This document shows, in pieces, positions 3,484 through 59,974 of a stretch of DNA of 64,000 nt (its first letter is position 1; each line of letters begins with the position of its first letter). Below the pieces are notes generated by a model. The model saw nothing but the letters and a program-made list of their open reading frames with translations. It was not told the origin of the DNA and searched no databases. Origin of the DNA: an uncultured Ignavibacteria bacterium (GTDB lineage: Bacteria; Zixibacteria; MSB-5A5; WJJR01); the NCBI GenBank assembly GCA_964593585.1, contig CAZQIZ010000001.1, positions 64,528 through 128,527 on the forward strand, written 5' to 3'. The position numbers were made by a program, and so were the translations under genes.

Positions 3484-3489
3484 GCCCGG

Positions 3490-4035
3490 CTAGAAGTTGC
3501 GCAGACGGACCTGCGTCTCGAACGTGCGGCGGCGATACCCGTCGCCGGCGATCAGGGCGCTGTCGGGTTTGGGGGCGCGCGCGGTCAGCGAAATGTCGAT
3601 CAGATTCGGCCCCAGCCGTGTCAGCGCGAACGATTCCACATTCTCCGCGAGGACTTCGGGTGACTCACCCTTGAATTGGCGGTACAAATTGGTCTGCGAC
3701 TGCTCATCGGTCGCCACGAAGTAAAGCGTGGTGTCGACTTCGGCGGTGGCGTCATCGCGCTGGTAGATCGTCAGCGAATCGGCGCCGAGCGTGTAGGCCG
3801 GGTGGCTTTTCAACTGGTAGCCGCCCATGCGCAGCGCCCCGGCGATCTCATCCAGCGACGCCCGCACATTCTGTTGGACCGCGGCGACGTCGTTTTCCAC
3901 CAGCCAGGTCTTGTGCTGCGAGACGTAGAACTCCATCGCCGCGCCCGCCACCAGAAACGTCAGGAAGGACGCGATCAGAAATTCGATCAACGTCATGCCC
4001 CGTTCCGAATGCCAATAGTGTCTGATCGATCTCAC
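3490..4035 (-). CDS. Prepilin-type N-terminal cleavage/methylation domain protein (PilW-like minor pilin).
   Basis: Short leader 'MRSIRHYWHSERG' followed by 'MTLIEFLIASFLTFLVAGAA' (G|M-T-L-I-E class III signal with Glu at +5). Confidence 0.65.
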   Translation of the reverse strand: MRSIRHYWHSERGMTLIEFLIASFLTFLVAGAAMEFYVSQHKTWLVENDVAAVQQNVRASLDEIAGALRMGGYQLKSHPAYTLGADSLTIYQRDDATAEVDTTLYFVATDEQSQTNLYRQFKGESPEVLAENVESFALTRLGPNLIDISLTARAPKPDSALIAGDGYRRRTFETQVRLRNF

Positions 4036-4043
4036 GGCGGTCC

Positions 4044-4448
4044 TCAGTTCTTGGTCGTGTACGTGGTGAAGGTGAGCGTGCGCGCCAGCCCCGACGCGTC
4101 GGTCCAGTTGACGGTCGCGTCCACCTTGTAGACATGCGCCGGGATCGACGAGGTCACCGTCTTGTCGGTAACACGCGTCGTCACCGTGTATCTGCCGCCA
4201 TCGAAGGTGCTGGTCTGCACATAGGGGATGGTCGGAAACCCGACGGCGCCGATTTTCTGCTCGATCATTTCCTGCGCCGCGGCTACCACGCTGGTGATGT
4301 TCTCGCTGTGCACGCTGCCCCGCACCGAGATGGCCATCAGCGGCGCCAACCCCAGAATGCCGAGGGTCAATACGACCATGGCCGCGAGCACTTCGATGAG
4401 GGAGAGCCCCTTTTGATCTGATCCGATCTTGCGCAATCGCCCCAGCAT
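4044..4448 (-). CDS. Type IV pilin-like protein (PilV-like minor pilin). A longer alternative start at 4511 is less likely.
   Basis: Leader 'MLGRLRKIGSDQKG' then 'LSLIEVLAAMVVLTLGILGL' (Glu at +5). An ATG is present at 4448 on the minus strand. Confidence 0.65.
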   Translation of the reverse strand: MLGRLRKIGSDQKGLSLIEVLAAMVVLTLGILGLAPLMAISVRGSVHSENITSVVAAAQEMIEQKIGAVGFPTIPYVQTSTFDGGRYTVTTRVTDKTVTSSIPAHVYKVDATVNWTDASGLARTLTFTTYTTKN

Positions 4449-4687
4449 ATCATCCGCCTTCCTTCGCTTCAGTGTTCGTCTTGCCGCTGACATAAGCCAA
4501 TGCCGTGCCAAGAGTCCGGATTCCGTGACAAACCCATAATCCTCCGACTGACAACGCCTTACGCGCCGGGTCGTTGGGCCGCGCCGATGCCCGTGATGCC
4601 AAGCAGTGGCTGCACCGGGCGGAGGTATGGGATCGTGCCCATTGTCGGAAATGCGGATGGGGATGCGGTCGGACGGCGTTGGTGCTT

Positions 4688-11463: not shown

Positions 11464-11659
11464 GACTGCAGTCCGTTGGTCGCTGGCGATCTTCAAGATG
11501 ACTCTCCGAATGTAAGTGAGTTGAATCGTCTTCGGCAACCGTAAAGCCGCGGTTGTGCTGATCATCCTTCTGCGCGCGTGGGTGCCTCGTGAATGCGGAT
11601 AGAAGATACGACAATTCGATACGTCTTGACAAGTCCCGCGCGAATTTTGCATCTTGGCC

Positions 11660-11835
11660 TCGGCGTTCGGGGATCGCCCAATGGCGATCGACCGGGAAGG
11701 CGGTGCAAATCCGCCACAGCCCCGCTGCTGTAAGCGGCTACAACGACGGCATCGAAGCCACTGGATTGCATCCGGGAAGGCGCCGTCGAAGGCGCGAAGC
11801 CGCAAGTCAGAAGACCGGGCCGAACGTGTTTGATC
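11660..11835 (+). promoter_or_regulatory. Cobalamin (AdoCbl) riboswitch in the 5' leader of the TonB-dependent receptor gene.
   Basis: Conserved core 'ACCGGGAAGGCGGTGCAAATCCGCCACAGCCCCGCTGCTGTAAGCGG' and a B12 box 'GAAGCCACTGG...GGGAAGGCG'. A candidate promoter (TTGACA at 11626) lies upstream. Riboswitch ends about 150 nt before the receptor ATG. Confidence 0.85.
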
Positions 11836-11990
11836 ACCGACGACGCCTTCGCGGGAGGGAGCGGGTGACAGGGACGGGTCCCACGACCCGGCCATGCCAT
11901 CATCACCCGGCCTGATTCCCGGCCGGGTTTTTGTTTCCGACACCGCCACGGCGCCGTCCAGCCCGCCACTCCGAGGGGAGGTGGAGGTCG

Positions 11991-14123
11991 ATGCCGAGTT
12001 TGCCCCGTTTTGTGTGCTGTGTCGCGGCACTTGCGCTGTTGTTGTCTCCTGCGTCCGCGTGGACACAATCCGACATCGTCATCTCCGGCATTGTAATCGA
12101 TGCGATCACGCTCGCGCCGATTGATCAGGCGGCGATTCGTGTCGATGCCACGGCGCTGGTGACTCATTCGCAGGGCGATGGCCGCTTTACGCTCCGCGCG
12201 GTGCCGTATGGCGCCTGGACGCTGATGATCGAGCGCGCCGGATACCATTCGCGTCGCATCGAACAGGTCCGGATTGATGAGGGACTGGCGCGCACCCTGC
12301 GCATCGAGCTGCAGCCCGACCCGGTGCAAGTCGAGGGACTAAAGTCCACCGCTCCTGTAACCGCATCAGGATCAGTCCGTCGGATTCAACTGCGCGAAGG
12401 GCGGCATGCGGGCAAGTCGCTGGCCGAGGTGCTGGCAACGGTGCCTGGCATCCGTGTCTACGGCAGCGCTGATGCGCCCGGCGGCACGCGCATTTCGCTG
12501 GGCGGCGAACCGGCCAGCCGTGTGACGGTCCTGCTCGATGGTCTGCCCCTGTCGGGCGGCGCCGATGGCGCGGTCGATCTGGAAGCGATCCCGAAGGCGG
12601 CTATCACCGCGGTCGAGATCCGTCCCGGAAGCCAGAGTCTGACCGCCGGCGATGCGGCCATGGGGGGCGCGATCAATTTGATCACCGCGCCGCCGCCCGC
12701 GTCGCGTCAATTGGCGGTTTCCTCGCAGGCCGGGCAGTGGGGCGCCCTCCAGCAGGAGGCGAAGGCCACCGTGCGATCCGGCTCACTGCATCTGTCCGCC
12801 GGCGGCGAATATGGCCGTCGCGACGACCGCTACCGCTACATCGACGCCACCGGCGCCTCCGCCACACGTCGCAACGCCGGGCGGGAAGAGGGGCGGATGT
12901 TCGCGCGAGTTACACATTCCGCGCGGCCCACGCTGGAATTGCTCGGCTATGGCTCGCGCATCGAACGCGGCGCGCCGGGAACCATCGAACGCCCGCTCAT
13001 CTCGGCGACGACGACCAATAGGAATGCCCGTGTCCAAACCAACCGTACCTGGGCGGTTGGCTCCCATGCCGCGCTGGCAGTCGCCGGTTGGTATGAGTTC
13101 ACCAGTGAATATTACAACGCCACTGCAGAACGTGTGCCATTCCATACATATATACGTGAGCATTACCTCGGGGCCCGTGTCGGCGGCGAGTTCGACTGGT
13201 TGCGGGGGGCTCTGACGCTGGAAGGGGAGAGCCGGAGGCGCGATCTGCGCGGCGATGATTACCAACGTCCGGCCCTCGCCTTCGGCGCACAATCGCGCGC
13301 GGAGTATGCGTTGCGCGCGCGCTGGCGACGCACATTCGGCGCGTGGTCCATCTCCGGCGGCGCGTCGGTCGATGCCGATGCCGACAACCGCCCCGGCTGG
13401 TCGCCGCGCGCCGATATCAGCTGGCGTCTGCTCGATGGGCTGCACCTGGGCGCGGGCTGGGGGCATTCCTTCCGCCGTCCGCTGCTATTGTCGGCGTTCT
13501 GGAAAAGCGACTACTACACCCAGGGCAACCCGGATCTGCGTCCCGAACGCGCGGTCGAGTGGGAACTGTCGGCCCGCGGGCGTTACCGCTTCCCGCATGC
13601 CGATGTACGCTACTTCGAACGCGATGTCACCGACATCATTGTCTGGGACCTGCGCGGCGCGCCGCCGCGTTATCAACCGGTCAACCTTGCCGGGGCGCGA
13701 GTGATCGGCCGCGAGGATCATGTTGCGGCCACGGCCTGGGACGGCCGAGTCACGCTGGACTACACCCACATCTTCACCGCCGGCACCGACGCCTCCGGTG
13801 AATTCAATTACGAGGGCCGGACACTGGTCTTCATGCCGCGTCACACGCATGACCTGATCGGCGATGCGCAATTGGGACGCTGGGGTGTCTACGCTGCGGC
13901 GCATTGGGTCGGACCGCGTTTCACGCTGCGCGCCAACACCAAGTCGCAGCCGGCCTATCGTCGTTTCGATGCTGCCATTCGCTGCGCCATCCGACGCGGG
14001 CAGCCGGATCTGACGATTGCCGTGCGCGGCGAGAACCTGACCAACGAATCCATCGAATTGTTGCAGGGATACCCATCGCCGGCCCGGACGCTGACGCTGG
14101 CCCTGACAGCGGGGTTTGATTAA
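11991..14123 (+). CDS. btuB: TonB-dependent outer-membrane receptor, BtuB-like cobalamin receptor, with an N-terminal carboxypeptidase-regulatory-like domain.
   Basis: Signal peptide 'MPSLPRFVCCVAALALLLSPASA'. CarbopepD_reg-like 'IVISGIVIDAITLAPIDQAAIRVDATA'. Plug and barrel motifs, with a C-terminal 'TLTLALTAGFD'. Downstream of the cobalamin riboswitch. RBS GGAGGTGGAGG. Confidence 0.85.
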   Translation: MPSLPRFVCCVAALALLLSPASAWTQSDIVISGIVIDAITLAPIDQAAIRVDATALVTHSQGDGRFTLRAVPYGAWTLMIERAGYHSRRIEQVRIDEGLARTLRIELQPDPVQVEGLKSTAPVTASGSVRRIQLREGRHAGKSLAEVLATVPGIRVYGSADAPGGTRISLGGEPASRVTVLLDGLPLSGGADGAVDLEAIPKAAITAVEIRPGSQSLTAGDAAMGGAINLITAPPPASRQLAVSSQAGQWGALQQEAKATVRSGSLHLSAGGEYGRRDDRYRYIDATGASATRRNAGREEGRMFARVTHSARPTLELLGYGSRIERGAPGTIERPLISATTTNRNARVQTNRTWAVGSHAALAVAGWYEFTSEYYNATAERVPFHTYIREHYLGARVGGEFDWLRGALTLEGESRRRDLRGDDYQRPALAFGAQSRAEYALRARWRRTFGAWSISGGASVDADADNRPGWSPRADISWRLLDGLHLGAGWGHSFRRPLLLSAFWKSDYYTQGNPDLRPERAVEWELSARGRYRFPHADVRYFERDVTDIIVWDLRGAPPRYQPVNLAGARVIGREDHVAATAWDGRVTLDYTHIFTAGTDASGEFNYEGRTLVFMPRHTHDLIGDAQLGRWGVYAAAHWVGPRFTLRANTKSQPAYRRFDAAIRCAIRRGQPDLTIAVRGENLTNESIELLQGYPSPARTLTLALTAGFD

Positions 14124-14135
14124 AGGAGAGTCTGT

Positions 14136-15362
14136 ATGCACACCGCCACAAGCCAGCTCCTGGCTTGGAGCCTCATCCTAGGACTGACTCTGTGCGGCTC
14201 CGATGCCCGGGCGGTCGACGATCTGGATCGACTGTATGTCATCAACGGTCTCGGCGAGACGCTCACGCTGATCGACCGCGCCGGCGATTCGCTGGTGGCC
14301 AACTGGATGCCGCTGGGCGGCTGCCCAAACCGCATCCGCGCCCACGAGGGCCTGCTTCTGGTCGTCAACTCCTGCACTGATGACCTCATGGTCATCAATG
14401 CGGCCAGTCGATCGTTGCTTCGCACCGTCGACTTTCCCGGCGGCGACAATCCCTGGGACGTGCTGGTCCTCGATGATTCTCTCTGTGCCATTTCGCTTCT
14501 GGTGGCCAACGAGGTGGCCATTCTGAACTATCAAGTCGGCGTCGAACGACGCCGGTTTGCGGTAGGAACCAGCCCGGAGGGTTTGCTCTATTACGCCGGA
14601 CGTCTCTGGATCGCCAACACCGGCCTCGACTTCGGCACGTTTGAGTACGGTCAGGGGACGGTGTCGATCGCCAATGCGTCGTTGACCGCCGTGCAAGTCT
14701 CAGTCAATGTTGGCACCAACCCACAGGTCCTGGCTGTCGGCGGCGATGGCGAGGTGCATGTTCTCTGCACCGGCAATTACGCCGACCGTGTCGGGCGCAT
14801 CTACACGCTCGATCGCGATTCCTGGCTGCCGACCGATTCGATCCTGATCAACGATTATCCCGGCGATTTGGCGATTGCCTCCGACGGGATCGGCTACATT
14901 GCCGGGGGGGGATTCGTCGACTCCGGCTTCGTCTACCGCTATGATAGCCGGACACATGCGATTCTGAATGGGCCGTCCAATCCCTGGAAAACCGCGCGTG
15001 GTGTGCTGAGTGTGACACCGCGTCTGGAGGGGGGCGTCTTCGCGCTCTGCTTCTCCGCCGACTCGGTCACCGAACTGGCCGCCAACGGCGCACCGGCGGA
15101 TGCCTGGGCGGGAGGCGATGGCCCCGGCTATGCCGCCTATGTGACCAACCGTGTCCCCGGCGACCTCAACGATGACGGCGTGCACAATGTCCAGGATGTG
15201 GTCGAGATCGTGAACACCGCCTTCCGCGGCGGGGCGCCCAGCGGACGGCCCAACGCCGCCGATGTGAACGGCGATTGCGCCTGCGACATCCTCGATGCCG
15301 TGGCATTGGTCAACCATGTCTTCCGCGGCGGCGCGACGCTCTATTGGGGGTGCCTGCAATGA
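14136..15362 (+). CDS. Surface lipoprotein, YVTN/YncE-type beta-propeller with two C-terminal dockerin-type repeats. Candidate BtuG-like B12-binding partner of BtuB.
   Basis: Lipoprotein signal 'LILGLTLCGS'. Repeated beta-propeller blades. C-terminal 'DLNDDGVHNVQDVVEIVN...DVNGDCACDILDAVALVN' (dockerin type I-like). Position is immediately after btuB, as in Bacteroides btuB-btuG. Confidence 0.5.
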   Translation: MHTATSQLLAWSLILGLTLCGSDARAVDDLDRLYVINGLGETLTLIDRAGDSLVANWMPLGGCPNRIRAHEGLLLVVNSCTDDLMVINAASRSLLRTVDFPGGDNPWDVLVLDDSLCAISLLVANEVAILNYQVGVERRRFAVGTSPEGLLYYAGRLWIANTGLDFGTFEYGQGTVSIANASLTAVQVSVNVGTNPQVLAVGGDGEVHVLCTGNYADRVGRIYTLDRDSWLPTDSILINDYPGDLAIASDGIGYIAGGGFVDSGFVYRYDSRTHAILNGPSNPWKTARGVLSVTPRLEGGVFALCFSADSVTELAANGAPADAWAGGDGPGYAAYVTNRVPGDLNDDGVHNVQDVVEIVNTAFRGGAPSGRPNAADVNGDCACDILDAVALVNHVFRGGATLYWGCLQ

Positions 15363-15739
15363 GACCGATCCTCGCCGCTCTGCTTTTGCTTTCCATCGGC
15401 GGCTGCGGTCAGACGACGACCAAGCAGCGCACGGCCCCCAACCAGCCGGGGGCGTTGGTCATCGCCTACCGTCCCGACAGCGCCGACACCTTTGTCGCGG
15501 TCCGTTCCGATTCCGTGGTCGCGTTGGACTGGCTGCGCGAGATTGCCCGTTCGCATGACATCGCGCTGGAACTGAATTCTTACCCCTATGGCACATTGAT
15601 TGAACAGGTCGGACCGCGTCGCAACGGCGACGGCGGCTATTGGCTCTACAGGGTCAACGGCCAGATGGTCCCGAAGTCGGCCGATGCCCACCCCGTCGCC
15701 TGGAGCGACACAGTGACGTTTTTCTTCGACGAGCGTTAA
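15359..15739 (+). CDS. Small lipoprotein, DUF4430-like (transcobalamin/intrinsic-factor beta-domain-like). Candidate BtuH-like B12-binding protein.
   Basis: Lipobox 'LLLSIGGCGQ'. 'GYWLYRVNGQMVP...DTVTFFF' resembles the DUF4430 W-x-Y-x-V-N-G signature. Translationally coupled to the previous gene (ATGA). Confidence 0.5.
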   Translation: MRPILAALLLLSIGGCGQTTTKQRTAPNQPGALVIAYRPDSADTFVAVRSDSVVALDWLREIARSHDIALELNSYPYGTLIEQVGPRRNGDGGYWLYRVNGQMVPKSADAHPVAWSDTVTFFFDER

Positions 15740-15762: not shown

Positions 15763-16296
15763 GTGACCGTCGACGACAACCGTTTCTGGACCGTTCCAAA
15801 TCTGCTCTCGCTGTCGCGCATTGCGCTCATTCCGGTGTGGTGGTGGGTGATGCGCGCCGGGCTTGTTCCATTGGGGGCGGCGTTGATTGTGTATGCCATC
15901 CTCTCCGATGTGGCCGATGGCTGGATTGCGCGCCGCTGGAACCAGGCCAGCCGCTGGGGACGGATCCTCGATCCGATCGGCGACAAACTGGCGGCGGTGG
16001 TGGTGGGGCTGTTCTGCGTGCTCGACCGCGGCCTGCCGGCCTGGGCCTTCGCGCTGACTATTGCCCGCGACCTGTCGCTTCTGGTCGGCGGCTATGTCGT
16101 CCTGTGCCGCACCCATGTCGCGCCGGTCTCGGCCGACATCGGACGCTACGCCGCCCTGCTCTGGGGGATTGTCCTGCTGCTGTATGCCTTCGACTGGCAG
16201 CCCTATGGCCGTTACACCGTCTGGCCGGCGGTCGCGCTGTATCTGGTGGCAGGAGTCTACTACATGCGGCGGACGCTGTCGATCAAGCCGACTTAG
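15763..16296 (+). CDS. CDP-alcohol phosphatidyltransferase family membrane protein. Start uncertain (GTG at 15763; the ORF opens at 15640).
   Basis: Exact family motif 'DVADGWIARRWNQASRWGRILDPIGD' (D-x2-DG-x2-AR-x8-G-x3-D-x3-D). Confidence 0.7.
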   Translation: MTVDDNRFWTVPNLLSLSRIALIPVWWWVMRAGLVPLGAALIVYAILSDVADGWIARRWNQASRWGRILDPIGDKLAAVVVGLFCVLDRGLPAWAFALTIARDLSLLVGGYVVLCRTHVAPVSADIGRYAALLWGIVLLLYAFDWQPYGRYTVWPAVALYLVAGVYYMRRTLSIKPT

Positions 16297-19200
16297 CCCG
16301 TGCCCGGCGGCGGCTGCGCCAGTGGACGACATCGTCCAGCAGCGTGTAGACCACCGGCACCACAATTAAAGTCAGCATCGTCGAAGAGATCAATCCGCCG
16401 ATGACGGCGCGTCCCATCGGCGCGCGGAACTCCGCGCCCGGGCCGATGCCCAGCGCGATTGGCAGGATGCCCATGATGGTGGTCAGCGTTGTCATGATGA
16501 TCGGGCGCAGACGGATCGGACCGGCTTCGAGAATCGCCGCCTCCCGTGTTTCGCCGCGCGAGCGCGCCTGCTTGACAAAGTCGATCAGCAGGATGGCGTT
16601 CTTGGTGACCAGACCCATCAACAGCACCATACCGATCAACGACATAATCGACAACGCGCTGCCGAAGAGAAACAGCCCGACAAACGCGCCCACCAGCGAC
16701 ATCGGCAGCGAGAGCATGATGGTGAACGGGTCGGTGAAGCTCTCATACTGCGACGCCAGCACCAGATAGATGAAGATGACGGCGAGGACCAGCGCGGTGA
16801 AGATTTCGGCGAACGATTCTTCCTGAATTTCCGCCTCGCCGGTGGCGCGGATCGAATATCCGGGCGGCGTCGGCACCTGACGCGCCTTGGCCATCACCGC
16901 GGCGCGTACGTCGCCGGCGAAGGCGCCCGAGGCGATGTTGCCGGAGACCAGCACCTCGCGACGACGGTCGTACCGACGGATCTCCGCCGGCCCGCCGCGC
17001 GGCTGCAGGTGCGCCACTTCCTTTAGCGGCACCATGAAATTCGGATGCGCGGGGATGTCGCGCGTGCTGCCGATCATGAGGTTGGCCAGAGACCACGGGT
17101 CGCCGCGATCGGACGGGGCCAGGCGCAGACGGACGTTGTATTCCTCCGTGCCTTCCTTGAAGGTGGTGACATCGCTGCCGTCAACGAGGGTGCGCAGATC
17201 GGAGGCGATCGCCGCCATCGACAGACCCAGTTCGCTGGCGCGTTCGCGATCGACCACGATCTGTGTTTCCGGACGCGCCCCGGAGAGCGAATTGCGGATC
17301 TCCCTCGCGCCGGGTGTTGCTTTCGCCGAATCCTCCACCGCCGCCGCCAGCATCCTCAGCACCCGCAGGTCCTCGCCCTGCACAGAAATGCCGATCGGCT
17401 GCTGCTCCATCGAGCCGGCCTCCAGCGCCAAACCGAGGTAGAGACCGGGAAAATCGGCCAGGCGCTCGCGCATTTCGCTTTGCAGCACGAACACATGGCG
17501 GTCACGCCGGTCATGCGGGGTCAGGATCACCGTGACCATGCCTTCGTTGACCCCTTGCTGCTGCGCGCCAATGGTGGTGAAGATGCCCTCGACTTCGGGC
17601 GTCTCGCGCAGCCGCTCTTCCAGCCGCGCGGTCAGCTCGACCGTCTGTCGCAAAGTCGTCCCCGGCGCCGCCTCAAAGGCGATATAGATCTGGCCGCGAT
17701 CCGACATCGGCAGGAACTCGGTGCCAATAAAGGGCAGGAGGAAGAAGCTGCCGACAAACCCGATCCCAGCAATGGTCATCGTGGCCAGCCGATGGCGCAG
17801 CGCCCAGGCGAGGGTGCGGCGGTAGAGCCCCTTAACCCATTCGAAGGCGGCGTTGAAACGCGCCAGCAGGGCGTACAGGCCGCGACGCGACCGGACGGTT
17901 TGCTCCTCCTCGGAGCGGGTGACCAGGCGCGAAAACAGCATCGGCGTGAGCGTGAAGGCGACAAACAACGAGACCAACACCGACACCGCCACGGTCATCC
18001 CGAATTGGTAGAAGAAGCGGCCGACGATGCCGCCCATGAAGGCGACCGGCACAAAGACCGCCACGATCGTGAAGGTCGTCGCCATGACCGCCAGGCCGAT
18101 TTCGCCGGTGCCTTCGGCGGCGGCGGTGTGGCTGTTGCCCCCGCGATGAAAGTGCCGATGGATGTTTTCGATCACGACTATGGCATCATCGAGAAGGAGG
18201 CCGGTGGCGATCGACAGCCCCAAAAGCGACATGAAGTTGATGGTGAAGTTGAGCAGATCCATCATCATGAAGGTGGCAATGATGGACGTCGGTATGGCCA
18301 GCGCCGATATCAGCGTCGTACGCCAGTCGGCCAGGAAAATGAAGATAACCAGCACCGCCAGCAGGCCGCCGTAGAGGATGTTGACGATCACATCCTCGAC
18401 CGAGTCGCGGATGAAGATGGAGTTGTCGGTGGCGACGACGATCTCGATGTCCGGCGGCAGCTCGCGCCGCAACTCGACCAGGCGCGCCTGGATGCCATCG
18501 GCGACCTGCACCGTGTTGGCGCCCGACTGCCGGACCACGTTCAGCGAGACCGCCTCGGCGCCGTTGTAGCGCGCGTAGCTGCGCTGCTCGGCGATACCGT
18601 CGCTGACAGTCGCTATGTCGGACAAGCGCACCGGTTTCCCGTCGCGGTGCGCGACCACGATCGCGGCGAAGTCGCGCCAGTCGATCAGACGGCCCAGCGC
18701 GCGGACGGTGATTTCGCTTTCGCCTCGGTCCAGACGGCCGACCGGAATCTCGACATTGGCCTGGGCGATGGCGGCGGCAATCTCATGCACCGGGAGGCGA
18801 AAGGCCTCCAGCCGGGCGCGGTCCAACGCAATCTGTATCTCACGCTCCTCGCCGCCGGCCAACTGCACCGCCCCGACGCCGGGCACCCCCTCGAGGCGCT
18901 TCTTGATCACGTCCTTGCTGAAGGTGGTGATTTCCTTCAACGGACGGTCGCCGGAGACCACCAGCGACATGATCGGCATGGCATCGGGATCGAAGCGCTG
19001 GATGATCGGATCCTCGGCGTCGTCGGGCAATTCGGAGGTGATAGTCGAGATCTTCTCGCGCACCTCCAGCGCCTTGTCGGAGGGCTTCTCGCCGAGTTCG
19101 AACTCGGCAATGATCATCGAGAGGCCGTCCTGCGATGTCGACGTGATGTGCTTGAGCCCGGAGATCGTGTTGATCTCATCCTCGATCAGCTTGGTGACCT

Positions 19201-19384
19201 CCGACTCGATCGTCTCCGGATCGGCGCCCGGGTAGGCGGTCATCACCACGACGTAGGGAAAGTCGACATCGGGAAAGAGATCAACCGGGATGCGGTTGTA
19301 GGAGAAGGCGCCCAGCACGACCAGCGCGGTGACCATCATCACCGTGAAGACCGGCCGTTTGATCGCGGTGTCGGAGAGTTTCAT
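16283..19384 (-). CDS. Efflux RND transporter permease subunit (AcrB/CzcA superfamily).
   Basis: 1033 aa with 12 TM helices and two large periplasmic loops. Conserved 'LVQVADGIQ' and 'ALAIPTSIIATFMMM' blocks. Confidence 0.9.
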   Translation of the reverse strand: MKLSDTAIKRPVFTVMMVTALVVLGAFSYNRIPVDLFPDVDFPYVVVMTAYPGADPETIESEVTKLIEDEINTISGLKHITSTSQDGLSMIIAEFELGEKPSDKALEVREKISTITSELPDDAEDPIIQRFDPDAMPIMSLVVSGDRPLKEITTFSKDVIKKRLEGVPGVGAVQLAGGEEREIQIALDRARLEAFRLPVHEIAAAIAQANVEIPVGRLDRGESEITVRALGRLIDWRDFAAIVVAHRDGKPVRLSDIATVSDGIAEQRSYARYNGAEAVSLNVVRQSGANTVQVADGIQARLVELRRELPPDIEIVVATDNSIFIRDSVEDVIVNILYGGLLAVLVIFIFLADWRTTLISALAIPTSIIATFMMMDLLNFTINFMSLLGLSIATGLLLDDAIVVIENIHRHFHRGGNSHTAAAEGTGEIGLAVMATTFTIVAVFVPVAFMGGIVGRFFYQFGMTVAVSVLVSLFVAFTLTPMLFSRLVTRSEEEQTVRSRRGLYALLARFNAAFEWVKGLYRRTLAWALRHRLATMTIAGIGFVGSFFLLPFIGTEFLPMSDRGQIYIAFEAAPGTTLRQTVELTARLEERLRETPEVEGIFTTIGAQQQGVNEGMVTVILTPHDRRDRHVFVLQSEMRERLADFPGLYLGLALEAGSMEQQPIGISVQGEDLRVLRMLAAAVEDSAKATPGAREIRNSLSGARPETQIVVDRERASELGLSMAAIASDLRTLVDGSDVTTFKEGTEEYNVRLRLAPSDRGDPWSLANLMIGSTRDIPAHPNFMVPLKEVAHLQPRGGPAEIRRYDRRREVLVSGNIASGAFAGDVRAAVMAKARQVPTPPGYSIRATGEAEIQEESFAEIFTALVLAVIFIYLVLASQYESFTDPFTIMLSLPMSLVGAFVGLFLFGSALSIMSLIGMVLLMGLVTKNAILLIDFVKQARSRGETREAAILEAGPIRLRPIIMTTLTTIMGILPIALGIGPGAEFRAPMGRAVIGGLISSTMLTLIVVPVVYTLLDDVVHWRSRRRARAKSA

Positions 19385-20421
19385 CGCACGGCCGTCTGCG
19401 GCACCGGATTGACCGGGCTTTGATCCTGCAGGGAATGTTGACCGAGCACGACCACCGTCTCACCCGGCGTCAGCCCGGTGACGATCTGCACCAGCGTGCC
19501 CGATTCGGCGCCGACAGTGACCGGTATGTAATGCGCCAGGGAATCGCGCACGACAAAGGCGCCCAGCCCGGATTCGCGGTAGACCAGGGCCTCGCGCGGC
19601 GCCGCCACCGCGTCGGCGATGCGCTCCAACTCCAGGCCCGCGGTGATGAACATGCCGGGCAGGAGGCGGTGCTCCAGGTTCGGCGCCAGCGCTTCGACCC
19701 GCAACATGCGCGTCTCCGGGTCGGCCGACGAGGCGATCTGGTCGACCCAGCCGGCCGCGTGCGCGGCGCTGTCCAGCTGCGACAAAATCTGCACCGGCAT
19801 GCCTTTCCTCAGCGCGCGGGCCTCGTAGACAGTGACGTCAATTAATACACGCACCGTGTCGATGGCGGCAATCTCAACCAAGGCCTCGCCCGGCGTTGTC
19901 TGACGCCCGGTCTTGGCGGTCACATCGGTGACGATCCCGGTCAGAGGCGCCAGGACATTGGCGGCATCACGCGCCGCCTCGAAATCGGCCTTGGCAACCT
20001 CGAAGGCGGTCCGACGCGCATCGCGCTCCAACTCACTCACCGCGCCGTCGGCGAACAGACGATCGTACTTCTCAAATGTCTTCTTGGCATCCTCGTACAC
20101 CGCCTGCGCCTGACGCACCGACGTCGCCGGCCCGGACTGGTCGAACGTCACCACCACCTGCCTGGCGTGTACCGCGTCGCCCTTGCGCACATGCACCCGC
20201 GCGATCGTCTCGGCCAGTCGCGCGCTGACCGTTGCCTGACGAATCCCCTCCACCGAGCCGGAATAGGATAGCGTGCGGGTGATGTCCTGACGGACCACCG
20301 GGGCGGTGACCACCGGAATACGGGCCACGTTGTTCTGTGTCTGCTGGCCCGATTGGCATCCGGCCAAAGTCAGGGTCAGGGCCGCCAGCATCGCCGTGGA
20401 AGTCACCTGTTGAACATGCAT
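19381..20421 (-). CDS. Efflux RND periplasmic adaptor (membrane fusion protein).
   Basis: Lipoprotein-like N-terminus 'LTLAGCQSG'. HlyD/biotinyl-lipoyl-like fold. Stop/start overlap with the RND gene. Confidence 0.85.
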   Translation of the reverse strand: MHVQQVTSTAMLAALTLTLAGCQSGQQTQNNVARIPVVTAPVVRQDITRTLSYSGSVEGIRQATVSARLAETIARVHVRKGDAVHARQVVVTFDQSGPATSVRQAQAVYEDAKKTFEKYDRLFADGAVSELERDARRTAFEVAKADFEAARDAANVLAPLTGIVTDVTAKTGRQTTPGEALVEIAAIDTVRVLIDVTVYEARALRKGMPVQILSQLDSAAHAAGWVDQIASSADPETRMLRVEALAPNLEHRLLPGMFITAGLELERIADAVAAPREALVYRESGLGAFVVRDSLAHYIPVTVGAESGTLVQIVTGLTPGETVVVLGQHSLQDQSPVNPVPQTAVR

Positions 20422-20448
20422 CGTCAGACTCCTTGATCCTGTCCCGAG

Positions 20449-21804
20449 TTACTCACTCGCGCGGGCAAACACCGGCTCGCCCATGGCCAGCCGCCACTGC
20501 ACCCGCGCCACCCGGCGGTCATGACGGGCGCGGGCGGCGAAGACGCGCGCGGTGGCCAGCGCCACCTGCGCATCGAGCACTTCCAACTGCGTTCCGACCC
20601 CGGACTCATAGCGCAAATTGGCGATCTGCAGCCCGCGTTCGGCCTCGGCCACCGATTCCCCCTGCGCCTGCAGACGGGCGCCGGCCTCATCGAAGCGGCT
20701 GCGCGCATCGGCAATCTGCAGGGCCACCGCGCGGTCCAGTTCGCTTTGACGCAACTCGGCTTCGCGTTGATCGACCCGCAACACCTGGATGTTGCCCCGG
20801 CGACGGAAGCCATCGAACAAATTGTACGAGGCCGACAACCCTACCTGCCATGAACGGAAGTAATCGTCGCGCGCCGGCCAACTGTCGTCGGTCAATGCCT
20901 GATAGTCGAATGTTCCCTTTAGATGCAGCGACGGCCAGCGTTCGGCTTTGAGCACGCCTACCGCCTTGTCGATGGCTGAAATCCGGTGTGTCATCGCCGC
21001 CAGATCGGAGCGCTGACGGCGCGCCACCGTCACCAGGTCGCTGCCGTCATACTCCCAGGCGGCTGAGTCGGGTTCGGCGTCGCGAATGCCCAGCTCCAGA
21101 TCGGGCGGGAGCCCGACCAGATTGGCCAGACGCAGCAGCGCCAGACGCAAATCGTTTTCCGCCTGGAGGACCGGTGGTCGGGCGTTGGCCACACGCACCC
21201 GTGCGCTGAGGTTGTCGTATTCCGAGACCAACCCGTCGGCAAACTTGCGCGCTACCACCGCGGCGTGTTCTTCGGTCAAAGCCAATGTCTGACGCGACAC
21301 ATCGGCCAGTTGCGCCGCCAGAAGGGCGTCGAAGTAGGCGGTGGCGACTTGGGCTTCCAGTTCGAGGCGCGCCTGTTGCGCCAGATGTTCGTTCATGCGC
21401 CGATACTGCTGCGCCGCCTGCCAGGCCGACAAGACACCGCCTCCTTCAAACAACGTCTGGTCAAAGGTCAGCCCGCCGACCACCGTGTACTTTGTGCCGA
21501 TGGTGAATTCCTGTCCGGCGAAGAAGATCTTGGGCAGTTCGAGCGTACGGTTGTAGTTGGCGTGCAGGTCGATGGTGGGGAAGAGGCCGGCGCGGGCGCT
21601 GACAATCTGCCCTTCGGCCCGATCCAATTGTGCCAGCACAGTCTGGTACTGCTCGTTGTGACGCACCGCCGAGTCGATGGCCGCCGCCAGCGGCAGTTCA
21701 TACGGCTGCGCATGCCCGCGGGCGGCCGATAAGGCGACCAGCGCAACGAAAAAAACGGCGGAGACCCGCCGACCAGATGCGCGCGGACGGACCGATTCAA
21801 ACAT
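20449..21804 (-). CDS. TolC-family outer-membrane efflux protein (partner of the RND pump).
   Basis: Signal peptide 'MFESVRPRASGRRVSAVFFVALVALSAARGHAQ'. Two OEP repeats with coiled-coil segments. Start placed at the ATG at 21804 rather than the 22110 extension. Confidence 0.8.
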   Translation of the reverse strand: MFESVRPRASGRRVSAVFFVALVALSAARGHAQPYELPLAAAIDSAVRHNEQYQTVLAQLDRAEGQIVSARAGLFPTIDLHANYNRTLELPKIFFAGQEFTIGTKYTVVGGLTFDQTLFEGGGVLSAWQAAQQYRRMNEHLAQQARLELEAQVATAYFDALLAAQLADVSRQTLALTEEHAAVVARKFADGLVSEYDNLSARVRVANARPPVLQAENDLRLALLRLANLVGLPPDLELGIRDAEPDSAAWEYDGSDLVTVARRQRSDLAAMTHRISAIDKAVGVLKAERWPSLHLKGTFDYQALTDDSWPARDDYFRSWQVGLSASYNLFDGFRRRGNIQVLRVDQREAELRQSELDRAVALQIADARSRFDEAGARLQAQGESVAEAERGLQIANLRYESGVGTQLEVLDAQVALATARVFAARARHDRRVARVQWRLAMGEPVFARASE

Positions 21805-21925
21805 CGGACTATAGTACTCCACATCCGGTCCGGTTGGGTGTCGATTTCCCACCCGCGCGCGGTGTTTTTGACAGGCGGGAAGGCCCGCCGCAAACCGTGA
21901 CAAATCCCCCGCCGCAGTCATACAT

Positions 21926-22780
21926 TTGGGCATGGCCGGCGCCATCGACATCCACATCCACGTCTCGCCCTTTGAGCAGATGCATCCGCCGATTCTGGCA
22001 ACGATGAAGCAGGGGAGAGATTTCGCGCTAATCGAACGGGTCACGCGCGATCCCGGCGCGCTGTTGGCGCTGATGGACGAGGCGGGCATCGAGCGGTGCG
22101 GGATCATCAACTATGTCGCGCCGGAGTTGATGGGATTCACCGACGAAGTCAATCGCTTCGCCGCGGCGTATGTGAAGGGCCATCGCGACCGGCTCTTCGC
22201 CCATGGTTCACTCGATCCGCACACAACGCGCGATCCCCGCGGCGAACTGGCCCGGCTGATGGATGAGGGCATCACCGCGATCAAGATTCACCCGCCGCAT
22301 CAGGCGGTATACCCGAACGAATATCTGCGCGGCAACCGCATCTTGGCCGACCTGTATGGCTTCTGCGCCGAACGGGGCGTGCCGGTTGTCTTTCACACCG
22401 GCACCACGATCTTCAAAGCGGCGCGCATCAAGTATGGCGATCCGATCCATCTCGATGACGTCGCCTGCGATTTTCCCGAGTTGACGATCGTGCTGGCCCA
22501 CGCCGGACGTCCCCTCTGGATGGAAACCGCGCGTTTCCTGGTCAAACGCCATCCGAATGTGTACATGGACCTCTCCGGCATTCCGCCCGTCCGGATTCCG
22601 CAATGGTTTCCCGATCTCGACAAACTGGCCACCAAGACCCTCTGGGGCAGCGACTGGCCCGGCCCCGGAGTGCCCGATCTGGGCGCCAACTTGCTGGCAT
22701 TCCGAGCTCAGAATTGGGCGGAAACCAGCCACGAGGCGATCGGCCGAAGCAATGCGCCGAAAGTTTTTCGTCTGGCGTAA
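21926..22780 (+). CDS. Amidohydrolase-2 family metal-dependent TIM-barrel hydrolase.
   Basis: 'AIDIHIHVSP' HxH metal-binding start and a conserved 'HAGRP' motif. Confidence 0.7.
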   Translation: MGMAGAIDIHIHVSPFEQMHPPILATMKQGRDFALIERVTRDPGALLALMDEAGIERCGIINYVAPELMGFTDEVNRFAAAYVKGHRDRLFAHGSLDPHTTRDPRGELARLMDEGITAIKIHPPHQAVYPNEYLRGNRILADLYGFCAERGVPVVFHTGTTIFKAARIKYGDPIHLDDVACDFPELTIVLAHAGRPLWMETARFLVKRHPNVYMDLSGIPPVRIPQWFPDLDKLATKTLWGSDWPGPGVPDLGANLLAFRAQNWAETSHEAIGRSNAPKVFRLA

Positions 22781-22882: not shown

Positions 22883-23500
22883 ATGAGTGAATCGCGCGAC
22901 ACGCGTTCTGCCCTGATTGCCTCCGCTCGCAAGGTCTTCGCGCGGCGCGGCTACCGCGGCGCCTCCATTAAAGCCATCACCGATGACGCCCACGCCAACC
23001 TCGGCGCGGTCACCTACCACTTTGGCACCAAGGAACGTCTCTACCATGAAGTCATCCGACAACTGGTCGGACCGCTGCATCAACATGTACGCGCCGCCAC
23101 GGAAGCCGACGGCACCGCGCTCTCGCGCATCGAGGCCGGCGTCCGCGCCTACTTCCAGTACATGCACACGCACCACGAACTGCCGGCGATGATGCTGCAT
23201 GAGATGTCGCTGACCGGACCGCTCCCCGCGCCGATTCAGGAATCGATCGGCGCGATGATGAAGCACATGTCCGGGCTGGTCGTGCGCGGCCAGGCCGACG
23301 GGGAGATAGTCGAAGGCGATCCGGTGCTGCTGACCGTCAGTTCCATATCACAGCCTTTGTTCTTTGTCATCATGCGCCGGGGCCTGAAGGAAATCGCCGG
23401 GGTCAACATGCACGACCGCGCGACCCAGGAACGGGTGCTGGTTCACCTCTTGGCCTTTGTGCGGCGCGGACTGATGCGCCCGGGGAGTTCGACCCAATGA
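22883..23500 (+). CDS. TetR/AcrR-family transcriptional regulator.
   Basis: HTH 'SARKVFARRGYRGASIKAITDDAHANLGAVTYHFGTKERLY'. Stop overlaps the TolC start. Confidence 0.85.
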   Translation: MSESRDTRSALIASARKVFARRGYRGASIKAITDDAHANLGAVTYHFGTKERLYHEVIRQLVGPLHQHVRAATEADGTALSRIEAGVRAYFQYMHTHHELPAMMLHEMSLTGPLPAPIQESIGAMMKHMSGLVVRGQADGEIVEGDPVLLTVSSISQPLFFVIMRRGLKEIAGVNMHDRATQERVLVHLLAFVRRGLMRPGSSTQ

Positions 23501-58981: not shown

Positions 58982-59005
58982 CCCTCAGACAAAGCGAGCC
59001 AATGG

Positions 59006-59971: not shown

Positions 59972-59974
59972 GCG

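What the first reader, a model, noticed from the sequence alone, without database searches (positions are those of the whole stretch)
11626..15739. Riboswitch-controlled B12 capture module: btuB plus BtuG-like beta-propeller plus DUF4430/BtuH-like lipoprotein, outside Bacteroides
A clear cobalamin riboswitch (B12 box GCCACTGG, core AATCCGCCACAGCCCCGCTGCTGTAAG) precedes a TonB-dependent receptor. That receptor carries a CarbopepD_reg N-domain, which is a SusC-like feature. It is followed, translationally coupled, by a lipoprotein beta-propeller and then a small lipoprotein whose 'WLYRVNG...TVTFFF' block looks like DUF4430 (transcobalamin/intrinsic-factor beta-domain). In Bacteroides these are BtuG, which binds B12 with femtomolar affinity, and BtuH; both are surface-exposed B12-piracy proteins. 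Finding both partners together in a high-GC FCB-group genome, with no btuFCD nearby, suggests this surface B12-capture strategy is broader than described.
Basis: partly seen in the sequence, partly recalled or inferred. Interest (0 to 1): 0.7.

Follow-up and report, generated by a model that had tools for sequence, protein, structure and literature searches.

The report
Riboswitch-controlled B12 capture operon, Zixibacteria
A vitamin-B12-sensing RNA switch controls an outer-membrane B12 importer together with a BtuG-like propeller protein and a small transcobalamin-like lipoprotein in a Zixibacteria-type genome, showing that helper-assisted B12 capture, so far described only in Bacteroidetes, is used well outside that phylum.

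Summary
A full-length cobalamin riboswitch (RF00174, 102.9 bits, 11651-11838) with an intrinsic terminator (11905-11937) precedes a TonB-dependent receptor. Tightly coupled to it are a 7-bladed propeller and a 126-aa DUF4430 lipoprotein.

- **Not a lipoprotein:** it has an ordinary cleavable signal peptide and a C-terminal dockerin. Relatives carry a type IX secretion tail or a lipid anchor instead.
- **Not Pfam DUF5074:** the window protein does not itself match BtuG1's Pfam family.
- **Small protein:** it is DUF4430, the transcobalamin/intrinsic-factor beta-domain fold. It is not BtuH, whose B12-binding domain is a different fold.

The receptor-propeller pair occurs in MAGs labelled Zixibacteria, KSB1, Calditrichota, Cloacimonadota, Gemmatimonadota and Armatimonadota, among others. 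This contradicts published statements that BtuG is exclusive to Bacteroidetes. The DUF4430 addition is confined to the Zixibacteria-like clade.

I rate it a new variant of a known kind, of moderate interest. B12 binding is inferred, not shown.

The parts
11651..11838 (+). Cobalamin riboswitch aptamer (RF00174), full length
   Evidence: cmscan gives 102.9 bits, E 1.2e-24, model positions 1-189 of 189. My own core model R1 gives 149.5 bits.
11905..11937 (+). Intrinsic-terminator-like hairpin (8 pairs, 7 of them G-C) followed by TTTTTGTTT. Probable expression platform between the aptamer and the start codon.
   Evidence: Terminator scan and sequence. That it is the B12-dependent off-switch is inferred.
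11991..14123 (+). TonB-dependent receptor, BtuB-like by context (710 aa): signal peptide, CarboxypepD_reg N-domain, plug, 22-strand-type barrel
   Evidence: Pfam PF13620, PF07715 and PF00593. Best NCBIfam model is TIGR01779 TonB-B12 at 101 bits, below its cutoff. PDB sequence hits include E. coli BtuB at E 3e-14 and CirA at 7e-15. Public gene call of 710 aa. JGI name 'vitamin B12 transporter'.
14136..15362 (+). Secreted 7-bladed YVTN/YncE-type beta-propeller, BtuG-like (residues about 30-337), plus a C-terminal type I dockerin (residues 341-395) ending in a conserved WGC
15359..15739 (+). Small lipoprotein with a single DUF4430 / transcobalamin beta-domain (SLBB beta-grasp) fold. Cys16 is invariant.
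   Evidence: PF14478 at 30.1 bits. Cys16 is invariant in 28 homologs. [quoted passage not shown] The top 19 Foldseek hits are all DUF4430 (3u7z) or transcobalamin, intrinsic factor or haptocorrin beta-domains.
15763..16296 (+). CDP-alcohol phosphatidyltransferase (PgsA-like). It lies 23 nt downstream with no terminator between, so it is possibly co-transcribed. Whether it belongs to the module is uncertain.
   Evidence: PF01066 at 90.6 bits. It follows the DUF4430 gene in 14/14 loci that have DUF4430. No terminator was found in the gap.

Best explanation
This is a B12-repressed outer-membrane corrinoid acquisition operon of a Zixibacteria-type bacterium.

Proposed mechanism:
1. When intracellular adenosylcobalamin is high, it binds the riboswitch aptamer. 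The downstream GC-rich hairpin and U-tract then terminate transcription.
2. When B12 is scarce, transcription reads through. Three translationally coupled genes are made, and possibly pgsA as well.
3. The TonB-dependent receptor imports corrinoids across the outer membrane.
4. The 7-bladed propeller is exported by the Sec system. It is held at the cell surface through its Ca-binding dockerin. Relatives use a type IX secretion tail or a lipid anchor for the same purpose.
5. Like BtuG, the propeller captures corrinoid in the central pocket of one propeller face and delivers it to the adjacent receptor, probably as a cap on the barrel.
6. The small DUF4430 lipoprotein has the fold of the transcobalamin/intrinsic-factor beta-domain. 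It is a second corrinoid-binding component. It acts either at the surface as a capture or hand-off partner, or in the periplasm as a tethered acceptor, since no btuF is nearby.

Shown here: the riboswitch, the terminator-like site, the domain and fold assignments, the signal types, and conservation of the riboswitch-receptor-propeller arrangement across many phyla.

Inferred: B12 binding by the two accessory proteins, surface location, lid formation, and the direction of hand-off.
For: - The riboswitch is full length and strong. A terminator-like hairpin plus T-run lies between the aptamer and the ATG.
- The genes are coupled: a 12-nt gap with AGGAG, then an ATGA overlap.
- The propeller family is linked to B12. 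In 80 genome loci found with the family alignment, 60/69 evaluable have an adjacent same-strand TonB receptor and 52/64 have a same-strand upstream cobalamin riboswitch. Rfam confirmed the riboswitch in L001, L002, L004, L006 and L008.
- In L004 a second riboswitch sits directly in front of the propeller gene.
- The family's invariant N105-P106 and C211-T212-G213 motifs align with the BtuG1 B12-contact positions 139/141 and 244 (residues from 10.1101/2024.02.16.580637).
- Surface location: relatives swap the C-terminal tail among dockerin (19/35), Por_Secre_tail and FlgD_ig, or carry an N-terminal lipobox instead.
- DUF4430: Pfam hit, invariant lipid-anchor Cys, and fold hits to transcobalamin beta-domains, including the isolated beta-domain crystallised with cyanocobalamin, 5np4.
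- Other DUF4430 proteins lie next to cobalamin adenosyltransferase (L092) and B12-radical-SAM genes (L093).
- Burroughs et al. 2007 (PMC1796856) predicted that this clade scavenges B12, and reported a beta-propeller fusion.
Against: - No binding or localisation data exist for either accessory protein.
- The window propeller has no Pfam DUF5074 hit.
- In sequence it is closer to generic YVTN repeats (archaeal S-layer 1l0q, E 3e-42) than to BtuG.
- Identity to BtuG is 13-16%, and the aligned contact residues differ in chemistry (N/W/T here, Q/R/R in BtuG1).
- BtuG is lipid-anchored with a linker that acts as a hinge on BtuB. This protein lacks that anchor, and no cohesin partner was found in the window.
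- How a dockerin-tailed protein would cross the outer membrane is unknown.
- The DUF4430 family profile finds no transcobalamin by sequence in the PDB.
- 12 of 64 evaluable related loci lack a detectable riboswitch.
Confidence: 0.72

Rival explanations
1. The propeller is a periplasmic, YncE-like partner of the receptor. It would act as a soluble periplasmic binding or chaperone protein that takes B12 from the receptor, in effect replacing BtuF. The DUF4430 lipoprotein would be the surface capture protein.
For: - The window protein has an ordinary Sec signal peptide and no lipid anchor.
- No btuF is in the window.
- Many family members match the YNCE Pfam model: 13/35.
- From my own knowledge: E. 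coli YncE is a periplasmic 7-bladed propeller encoded next to the TonB receptor gene yncD.
- Bacterial DUF4430 proteins in Gram-positives are surface proteins with SLH or LPXTG anchors.
Against: - Homologs in the same family carry type IX secretion C-terminal sorting domains, which export cargo across the outer membrane, or lipoboxes.
- A dockerin is an extracellular attachment module.
- BtuG structures, not YncE, are the best structural and profile matches: YncE 3vgz has E 1e-4 against 1e-20 for BtuG1.
Confidence: 0.13
2. The propeller and DUF4430 protein are not B12 binders. They would be generic surface or structural proteins (for example adhesins or S-layer-like YVTN proteins) that ride in the operon, or they would handle another riboswitch-co-regulated ligand such as cobalt or a different tetrapyrrole.
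For: - The best sequence match is an archaeal S-layer YVTN propeller.
- A reviewer of Burroughs et al. 2007 cautioned that SLBB domains may bind ligands other than B12 (PMC1796856).
- 3u7z, the closest solved DUF4430 structure, is annotated as a 'putative metal binding protein'.
Against: - The propeller family is found behind a cobalamin riboswitch in 52/64 evaluable loci across many phyla, in either gene order. In L004 it has a riboswitch of its own. That is hard to explain by hitch-hiking.
- DUF4430 relatives sit beside cobalamin adenosyltransferase and B12-dependent radical SAM genes.
- The transcobalamin beta-domain fold match is specific, with a sharp drop after rank 19.
Confidence: 0.07
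3. The two accessory proteins form one composite binder. The propeller would grip the corrin from the upper-ligand face, as BtuG does. The DUF4430 domain would cover the exposed nucleotide and lower-ligand face, as the beta-domain does in transcobalamin. Together they would make a split, transcobalamin-like sandwich that is then presented to the receptor.
For: - In BtuG2 the upper ligand points into the propeller and the lower ligand is fully exposed (PMC10404256).
- In transcobalamin the beta-domain and a second domain sandwich B12 (PMC1796856).
- The two genes overlap by ATGA.
- DUF4430 follows the propeller gene in all 14 loci of this clade.
- A beta-propeller-SLBB fusion exists in Clostridium (PMC1796856).
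Against: - This is purely geometric reasoning. No complex model could be computed here.
- Most of the propeller family (about 66 of 80 loci) works without DUF4430.
- If the propeller caps the receptor as BtuG does, its binding face points at the barrel, which leaves little room for a third protein.
Confidence: 0.08

Closest known systems
BtuB-BtuG systems of Bacteroides thetaiotaomicron (BtuG1/2/3; PDB 3DSM, 8BMX, 8BLW, 8P98)
   Same: - A cobalamin riboswitch is followed by a TonB-dependent receptor and then an adjacent 7-bladed propeller gene.
- BtuG structures are the best structural matches.
- There is significant profile similarity.
- Conserved motifs align with the BtuG1 ligand-contact loops.
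   Different: - Identity is only 13-16%, and the window protein has no Pfam DUF5074 hit.
- It has no lipid anchor or hinge linker. Instead it has a Sec signal peptide and a C-terminal dockerin.
- The receptor carries a CarboxypepD_reg N-domain.
- The host is a high-GC Zixibacteria-type MAG, not Bacteroidota.
- No btuFCD is in the operon.
- B12 binding is untested.
Transcobalamin / intrinsic factor / haptocorrin beta-domain and bacterial DUF4430 (SLBB transcobalamin-like clade, Burroughs et al. 2007; PDB 3U7Z, 5NP4)
   Same: - The small lipoprotein matches PF14478.
- It has the beta-grasp fold with the clade-specific beta-hairpin after the helix.
- It sits in a B12-related genomic context.
   Different: - It is a single domain with no alpha/alpha-toroid partner.
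- It is lipid-anchored in a diderm and coupled to a TonB receptor and a propeller. The described bacterial members are Gram-positive or archaeal surface proteins next to CbiO/CbiQ-type transporters (PMC1796856).
   Same: An accessory protein encoded in a riboswitch-controlled B12 uptake locus. BtuH is a lipoprotein that binds B12.
   Different: [quoted passage not shown]
- The window protein has a 96-residue beta-grasp (DUF4430) domain.
- No BtuH structure appears among its fold hits.
E. coli YncE / YncD and generic YVTN propellers (1L0Q)
   Same: Same 7-bladed YVTN/YncE superfamily. YncE is also encoded next to a TonB receptor gene (my own knowledge).
   Different: - YncE is periplasmic, iron-regulated, and not linked to B12.
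- The family profile matches YncE only at E 1e-4.
- 1L0Q is an archaeal S-layer module with no transport context.

Membership tests
Cobalamin riboswitch (RF00174) | Score at or above Rfam's gathering threshold over the full aptamer, including the B12 box | tested here: met
   102.9 bits against a threshold of 31.5, model positions 1-189 of 189. The B12 box GCCACTGG is present.
Cobalamin riboswitch (RF00174) | Ligand-dependent control of the downstream gene (expression platform) | tested here: inconclusive
   A terminator-like hairpin plus T-run at 11905-11937 lies before the ATG. Switching was not tested. The leader fold is no more stable than shuffled sequence, z -0.5.
BtuB (TonB-dependent vitamin B12 receptor) | Plug plus 22-strand barrel TonB-dependent receptor architecture | tested here: met
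   PF07715 and PF00593.
BtuB (TonB-dependent vitamin B12 receptor) | Passes the curated equivalog model (TIGR01779 / NF007926) | tested here: not met
   TIGR01779 is the best NCBIfam hit, but at 101 bits against a cutoff of 599.7. NF007926 scores 66 bits against 836. B12 specificity rests on the riboswitch context.
BtuG (Bacteroidetes surface B12-binding propeller; Pfam PF16819 DUF5074) | Seven-bladed beta-propeller fold closest to the BtuG structures | tested here: met
BtuG (Bacteroidetes surface B12-binding propeller; Pfam PF16819 DUF5074) | Matches the Pfam family that BtuG belongs to | tested here: not met
   BtuG1 residues 84-374 match PF16819 at 31.6 bits. The window protein has no PF16819 hit at E<=0.1. 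5/35 family members hit weakly. Distant relatives L037, L040 and L060 pass the threshold.
BtuG (Bacteroidetes surface B12-binding propeller; Pfam PF16819 DUF5074) | Encoded next to btuB under a cobalamin riboswitch | tested here: met
   True in the window. In related loci, 60/69 have an adjacent receptor and 52/64 have the riboswitch.
BtuG (Bacteroidetes surface B12-binding propeller; Pfam PF16819 DUF5074) | N-terminal lipoprotein Cys with a linker that anchors and hinges it on BtuB | tested here: not met
   There is no conserved lipobox. The Cys of LTLC is Arg in the 93%-identical homolog, and close relatives have A-x-A type signal peptides. Some distant relatives (P0062, P0063, P0065) do have lipoboxes.
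BtuG (Bacteroidetes surface B12-binding propeller; Pfam PF16819 DUF5074) | High-affinity corrinoid binding in the central pocket; conserved H-bonding residues | tested here: inconclusive
   The invariant motifs N105-P106 and C211-T212-G213 align with BtuG1 positions 139/141 and 244, but the residues differ. Binding itself cannot be tested with these tools.
BtuG (Bacteroidetes surface B12-binding propeller; Pfam PF16819 DUF5074) | Forms a lid complex on the receptor, with receptor loop EL8 entering the binding pocket | not testable with these tools
DUF4430 / transcobalamin-like SLBB clade (PF14478) | Pfam gathering threshold passed | tested here: met
   30.1 bits against 23.8, residues 77-123. 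Most homologs carry a precomputed PF14478 annotation.
DUF4430 / transcobalamin-like SLBB clade (PF14478) | Beta-grasp fold with the clade-specific beta-hairpin inserted after the helix (Burroughs 2007) | tested here: met
   In the model, helix 55-65 is followed by strands 70-75 and 78-84. The top 19 Foldseek hits are 3u7z and transcobalamin, intrinsic factor and haptocorrin beta-domains, followed by a sharp drop.
DUF4430 / transcobalamin-like SLBB clade (PF14478) | Binds cobalamin | not testable with these tools
   Supported only by context and by the precedent of the isolated transcobalamin beta-domain bound to CNCbl, 5np4.
BtuH | Ig-like/PKD N-terminal domains plus the BtuH-type C-terminal globular B12-binding domain (PDB 7BIZ) | tested here: not met
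   The protein is 126 aa with a single beta-grasp domain. No BtuH structure is among the fold hits, and there is no PDB sequence hit. The BtuH fold is described as having no known structural homologs (PMC8941943).
Type I dockerin (PF00404) | Duplicated Ca-binding F-hand D-x-N-x-D-G-x(5)-D and a Pfam threshold pass | tested here: met
   27.2 bits against 22.9, residues 341-395. DLNDDGVHNVQD and DVNGDCACDILD are both present. D343, D347, D354, D376, N378, D380 and D387 are invariant in 19 homologs. No cohesin partner was found in the window.

The most novel reading that the evidence does not exclude
Helper-assisted TonB-dependent B12 capture is not a Bacteroidota invention. It would be an old module, widespread in the FCB group and neighbouring phyla, whose propeller is attached to the surface in three interchangeable ways: a lipid anchor, a type IX secretion tail, or a dockerin.

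In the Zixibacteria-type clade it has additionally recruited a free-standing transcobalamin beta-domain lipoprotein. Together with the propeller this would form a split, transcobalamin-like two-sided clamp on B12. That would make it a bacterial counterpart of the animal B12 carrier built from different parts.
Probability: 0.15. Interest if true: 0.75.

Novelty: new variant of a known kind. Interest (0 to 1): 0.55.

Why it matters
[quoted passage not shown] A September 2026 review discusses BtuH and BtuJ beyond the phylum, but not BtuG (PMC13616437).

Here the same gene logic (B12 riboswitch, receptor, BtuG-like propeller) is found in dozens of uncultured environmental lineages. Their MAG labels include Zixibacteria, KSB1, Calditrichota, Cloacimonadota, Gemmatimonadota, Armatimonadota, Eisenbacteria and others.

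If binding is confirmed, three things follow:
- High-affinity surface capture of corrinoids becomes a general strategy in sediments, soils and groundwater, not a speciality of the gut.
- The lid does not need a lipid anchor.
- There would be a first diderm role for the bacterial relatives of the transcobalamin beta-domain.

It also offers small, well-behaved candidate B12 binders for biochemistry.

Tried and rejected
- Single-sequence PDB search with the small protein gave only spurious RecA and ACP hits. A family profile also found no transcobalamin by sequence. Only the fold comparison linked them.
- The search for related loci failed with the broad alignment A1, which had no conserved stretch. 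It worked with the closer set A4.
I rebuilt the alignment as A3.
- The full-length riboswitch alignment A5 was poor because of variable inserts. I trimmed it to the core (A6) before building model R1.
- R1 gave a weak hit at window 18614-18717 (20 bits, E 8e-4), inside the RND pump gene. I regard it as noise.
- I looked for btuFCD downstream of related loci. The conserved downstream genes in L028-L045 are DUF1385, a peptide-chain release factor (PCRF and RF-1 domains) and PmbA/TldD, none related to B12.
- I looked for a BtuH-like domain in the longer (about 640 aa) relatives. None was found: only the propeller, an unassigned middle region and a type IX tail.
- I looked for propeller-DUF4430 fusions among large DUF4430 proteins. 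The seven scanned were SLH- or LPXTG-anchored toroid-plus-DUF4430 proteins, or matched DUF4430 alone, with no propeller.
- I looked for a cohesin in the window and found none.
- P0067 (25% identity, radical-SAM context, no riboswitch) is an outlier and not part of the B12-linked family.
- The RNA fold of the leader region was no more stable than shuffles, z -0.5. The terminator call therefore rests on the pattern scan alone.
Full report
**1. Observation**

The window (64% GC) carries exactly one Rfam hit. It is a full-length cobalamin riboswitch at 11651-11838 (+): RF00174, 102.9 bits against a gathering score of 31.5, E 1.2e-24.

Between the aptamer and the first start codon lies a hairpin of 8 pairs, 7 of them G-C, at 11905-11928. 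It is followed by TTTTTGTTT. This is the usual shape of a transcription-terminating expression platform.

Three genes follow on the same strand.
- A 710-aa TonB-dependent receptor at 11991-14123.
- A 408-aa protein at 14136-15362. It starts 12 nt after the receptor stop, and AGGAG precedes its ATG.
- A 126-aa protein at 15359-15739, whose ATG overlaps the preceding TGA as ATGA.

Public gene calls on an identical contig give the same boundaries.

**2. The receptor**

Pfam finds a CarboxypepD_reg domain (residues 31-108), a Plug and the TonB barrel. The best NCBIfam model is TIGR01779 (TonB-B12), but at 101 bits it is far below the 600-bit equivalog cutoff. PDB sequence hits are to CirA and E. 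coli BtuB (E about 1e-14), and weakly to B. thetaiotaomicron BtuB3.

The receptor is therefore a divergent TonB receptor. Its B12 specificity is inferred from the riboswitch. JGI's automatic name for it is 'vitamin B12 transporter'.

**3. The propeller**

The protein has a YVTN repeat signature and a type I dockerin at residues 341-395. Both Ca-binding F-hands are intact, and their Asp/Asn positions are invariant in 19 homologs.

An AlphaFold model built on 35 homologs is confident (pLDDT 91.6). It shows 29 strands, which corresponds to seven blades plus a closure strand, followed by the helical dockerin.

Comparison with BtuG gives consistent results from four methods.
- Foldseek against the PDB ranks BtuG2, BtuG3 and BtuG1 of B. 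thetaiotaomicron first (E about 1e-17, TM 0.76-0.81). The archaeal YVTN S-layer module 1L0Q is tied with them.
- A profile of the family hits 1L0Q at 3e-42, BtuG1 at 1e-20, BtuG3 at 5e-12, BtuG2 at about 3e-10 and YncE at 1e-4.
- hhalign against BtuG1 gives 98.6% probability.

BtuG1 itself belongs to Pfam DUF5074. The window protein does not reach that model. More distant relatives from KSB1- and 'Cytophagia'-labelled MAGs do.

In the profile alignment, the family's invariant N105-P106 and C211-T212-G213 motifs fall on BtuG1 positions 139/141 and 244. These are reported cobalamin contacts (10.1101/2024.02.16.580637). The residues themselves differ.

My conclusion is that this is a divergent relative of BtuG within the YVTN/YncE superfamily. 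It is BtuG-like in fold and context, but it is not a member of the family by the curated sequence model.

**4. It is not a lipoprotein**

The Cys in 'LTLC' is replaced by Arg in the 93%-identical homolog. Close relatives have A-x-A type signal peptides.

Across the family the means of surface attachment changes.
- Dockerin: 19/35 members.
- Type IX secretion sorting domain (Por_Secre_tail / FlgD_ig).
- No C-terminal tail, but a classical lipobox (P0062, P0063, P0065).

Three different devices at the same place argue that what is conserved is exposure at the cell surface. The window organism does have type IX cargo: two giant HYR/PKD proteins at 30168-35525 and 36072-40688. Even so, it uses a dockerin here. 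No cohesin is encoded in the window.

**5. Context across genomes**

Homologs come mostly from Zixibacteria MAGs. In L001 and L002 the whole arrangement is conserved: HAD hydrolase on the opposite strand, then riboswitch, receptor, propeller-dockerin, DUF4430 and CDP-alcohol phosphatidyltransferase.

More distant relatives keep the riboswitch and the receptor. In L004 a second riboswitch stands directly before the propeller gene. In L008 the propeller precedes the receptor.

A scan of one genome per GTDB species returned 80 loci. Their MAG labels are Zixibacteria, 'Ignavibacteria', KSB1, Calditrichota, Cloacimonadota, Armatimonadota, Gemmatimonadota, Eisenbacteria, Neomarinimicrobiota, WOR-3, 'Cytophagia' and Acidobacteriota. 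Some of these automatic labels may be unreliable.

I searched these loci with a covariance model of the riboswitch core and with custom HMMs.
- 52 of 64 evaluable loci have a same-strand upstream cobalamin riboswitch.
- 60 of 69 have an adjacent same-strand TonB receptor: 55 upstream and 5 downstream.

This is the strongest evidence that the propeller family works in B12 uptake.

**6. The small protein**

It matches Pfam DUF4430 above threshold. Its Cys16 is invariant in 28 homologs, so it is a lipoprotein.

[quoted passage not shown] This hairpin is the hallmark of the transcobalamin-like SLBB clade (PMC1796856).

The top 19 Foldseek hits are the R. gnavus DUF4430 protein 3U7Z and the beta-domains of transcobalamin, intrinsic factor and haptocorrin. 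They include the isolated beta-domain crystallised with cyanocobalamin (5NP4). After rank 19, scores drop sharply.

About 1000 cluster representatives match the family profile, most of them 130-160 aa. Two sampled neighbours have B12-related contexts.
- One sits beside cobalamin adenosyltransferase (L092).
- One is a toroid-plus-DUF4430 protein beside DUF6580 and B12-radical-SAM genes (L093).

Large relatives are SLH- or LPXTG-anchored Gram-positive surface proteins.

It is not BtuH. The B12-binding domain of BtuH 'has no known structural homologs' (PMC8941943). BtuJ is DUF4465, BtuK is PKD plus propeller, and BtuL has a receptor L-domain (PMC13616437).

The DUF4430 gene follows the propeller only in the 14 loci of the Zixibacteria-like clade.

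**7. Mechanism**

- Shown: the riboswitch, the terminator-like site, gene coupling, the folds, the signal types and the conserved context.
- Inferred: low B12 allows read-through. The receptor imports corrinoid. The propeller, displayed on the surface, captures it in its central pocket and delivers it to the receptor as BtuG does. The DUF4430 lipoprotein is a second binder. Its side of the outer membrane is unknown, so it is either a surface hand-off partner or a periplasmic acceptor. The periplasmic role is attractive because I found no btuFCD among the scanned ORFs of the window.

Rivals, each scored in its own section:
- A periplasmic YncE-like role for the propeller.
- Non-B12 functions for the two accessory proteins.
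- A split transcobalamin-like clamp formed by the propeller and DUF4430 together.

**8. Novelty**

The literature states that BtuG is exclusive to Bacteroidetes, and that lipoprotein-capped TonB transporters seem exclusive to that phylum (PMC6143338; PMC10404256; 10.1101/2024.02.16.580637). Price's survey found conserved receptor-lid proximity for BtuG virtually only in Bacteroidota (10.1101/2023.03.17.533168). The 2026 review does not mention BtuG outside the phylum (PMC13616437).

Bacterial transcobalamin-like SLBB proteins were predicted to scavenge B12 in 2007, but in Gram-positives and archaea with ECF-type transporters (PMC1796856).

This locus is therefore a new variant of a known kind. 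It combines a BtuG-like, dockerin-tailed propeller with a DUF4430 lipoprotein on a TonB receptor, in a lineage where this has not been described. Public annotation calls the receptor a vitamin B12 transporter and leaves the other two as hypothetical, dockerin or DUF4430 proteins.

**9. Verdict**

It is wrong in two details: BtuH, and the lipoprotein status of the propeller.

Interest is moderate. The finding broadens a well-studied mechanism and yields testable binders. However, it follows the known logic, and every functional claim about the two accessory proteins is still inference.

Noticed in passing
window 15763-16296 (+): A PgsA-like CDP-alcohol phosphatidyltransferase starts 23 nt after the DUF4430 stop, with no terminator between them. 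It follows the DUF4430 gene in all 14 loci that have DUF4430, down to 36% propeller identity. It could be an operon member or merely conserved synteny.
   Followed up: partly
L004 4894-5400; L093 1988-2551: A small DUF6580 (PF20221) protein sits between a cobalamin riboswitch and the TonB receptor in L004. In L093 one sits next to a transcobalamin-like (toroid plus DUF4430) protein and two B12-binding radical SAM genes. It is a recurrent B12-linked gene of unknown function, and I suspect a membrane or transport role.
   Followed up: partly
L004 7712-7844: A second cobalamin riboswitch lies between the receptor gene and the propeller gene (61 bits in Rfam). The propeller is therefore separately B12-regulated there, reminiscent of the two riboswitches in B. 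thetaiotaomicron operon 1 (PMC13616437).
   Followed up: partly
window 57953-61897 (+): Two short MetE-like genes (Meth_synt_2, 342 and 321 aa) are followed by a fusion of a homocysteine S-methyltransferase domain with MTHFR (640 aa). This is an unusual methionine-synthesis cluster about 44 kb from the B12 operon. No riboswitch was detected there.
   Followed up: no
window 30168-35525 (-) and 36072-40688 (-): Two very large surface proteins (1785 and 1538 aa) carry HYR/PKD/SprB repeats and type IX secretion C-terminal sorting domains. The organism therefore has type IX cargo, yet its BtuG-like protein uses a dockerin.
   Followed up: partly
L037, L040, L053, L060 (propeller genes of about 635-690 aa): Longer relatives from KSB1- and 'Cytophagia'-labelled MAGs have a propeller that matches Pfam DUF5074, at or just under its cutoff. 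They also have an unassigned region of about 200 aa and a type IX sorting domain. The middle region has no PDB or Pfam match and is not BtuH-like.
   Followed up: partly
L006 9072-9545 and five other loci (L050, L055, L058, L078, L082): In lipoprotein-type members of the family, a conserved protein of about 157-176 aa with no Pfam match directly follows the propeller gene. It may be another accessory component.
   Followed up: no
window 2320-4511 (-): A cluster of pseudopilin or type IV pilin-like genes (PilX_N, DUF7305, N_methyl). It could belong to a type II secretion or pilus system. That may be relevant to how a dockerin-tailed protein leaves the periplasm.
   Followed up: no
window 16283-22110 (-) and 22883-24843 (+): An RND efflux system (ACR_tran, membrane-fusion protein, OEP) and a second TetR-OEP-membrane-fusion cluster are inserted between the B12 operon and the sdh/IF-2B block. 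In L001 and L002 that block lies directly, or only a few genes, downstream.
   Followed up: no
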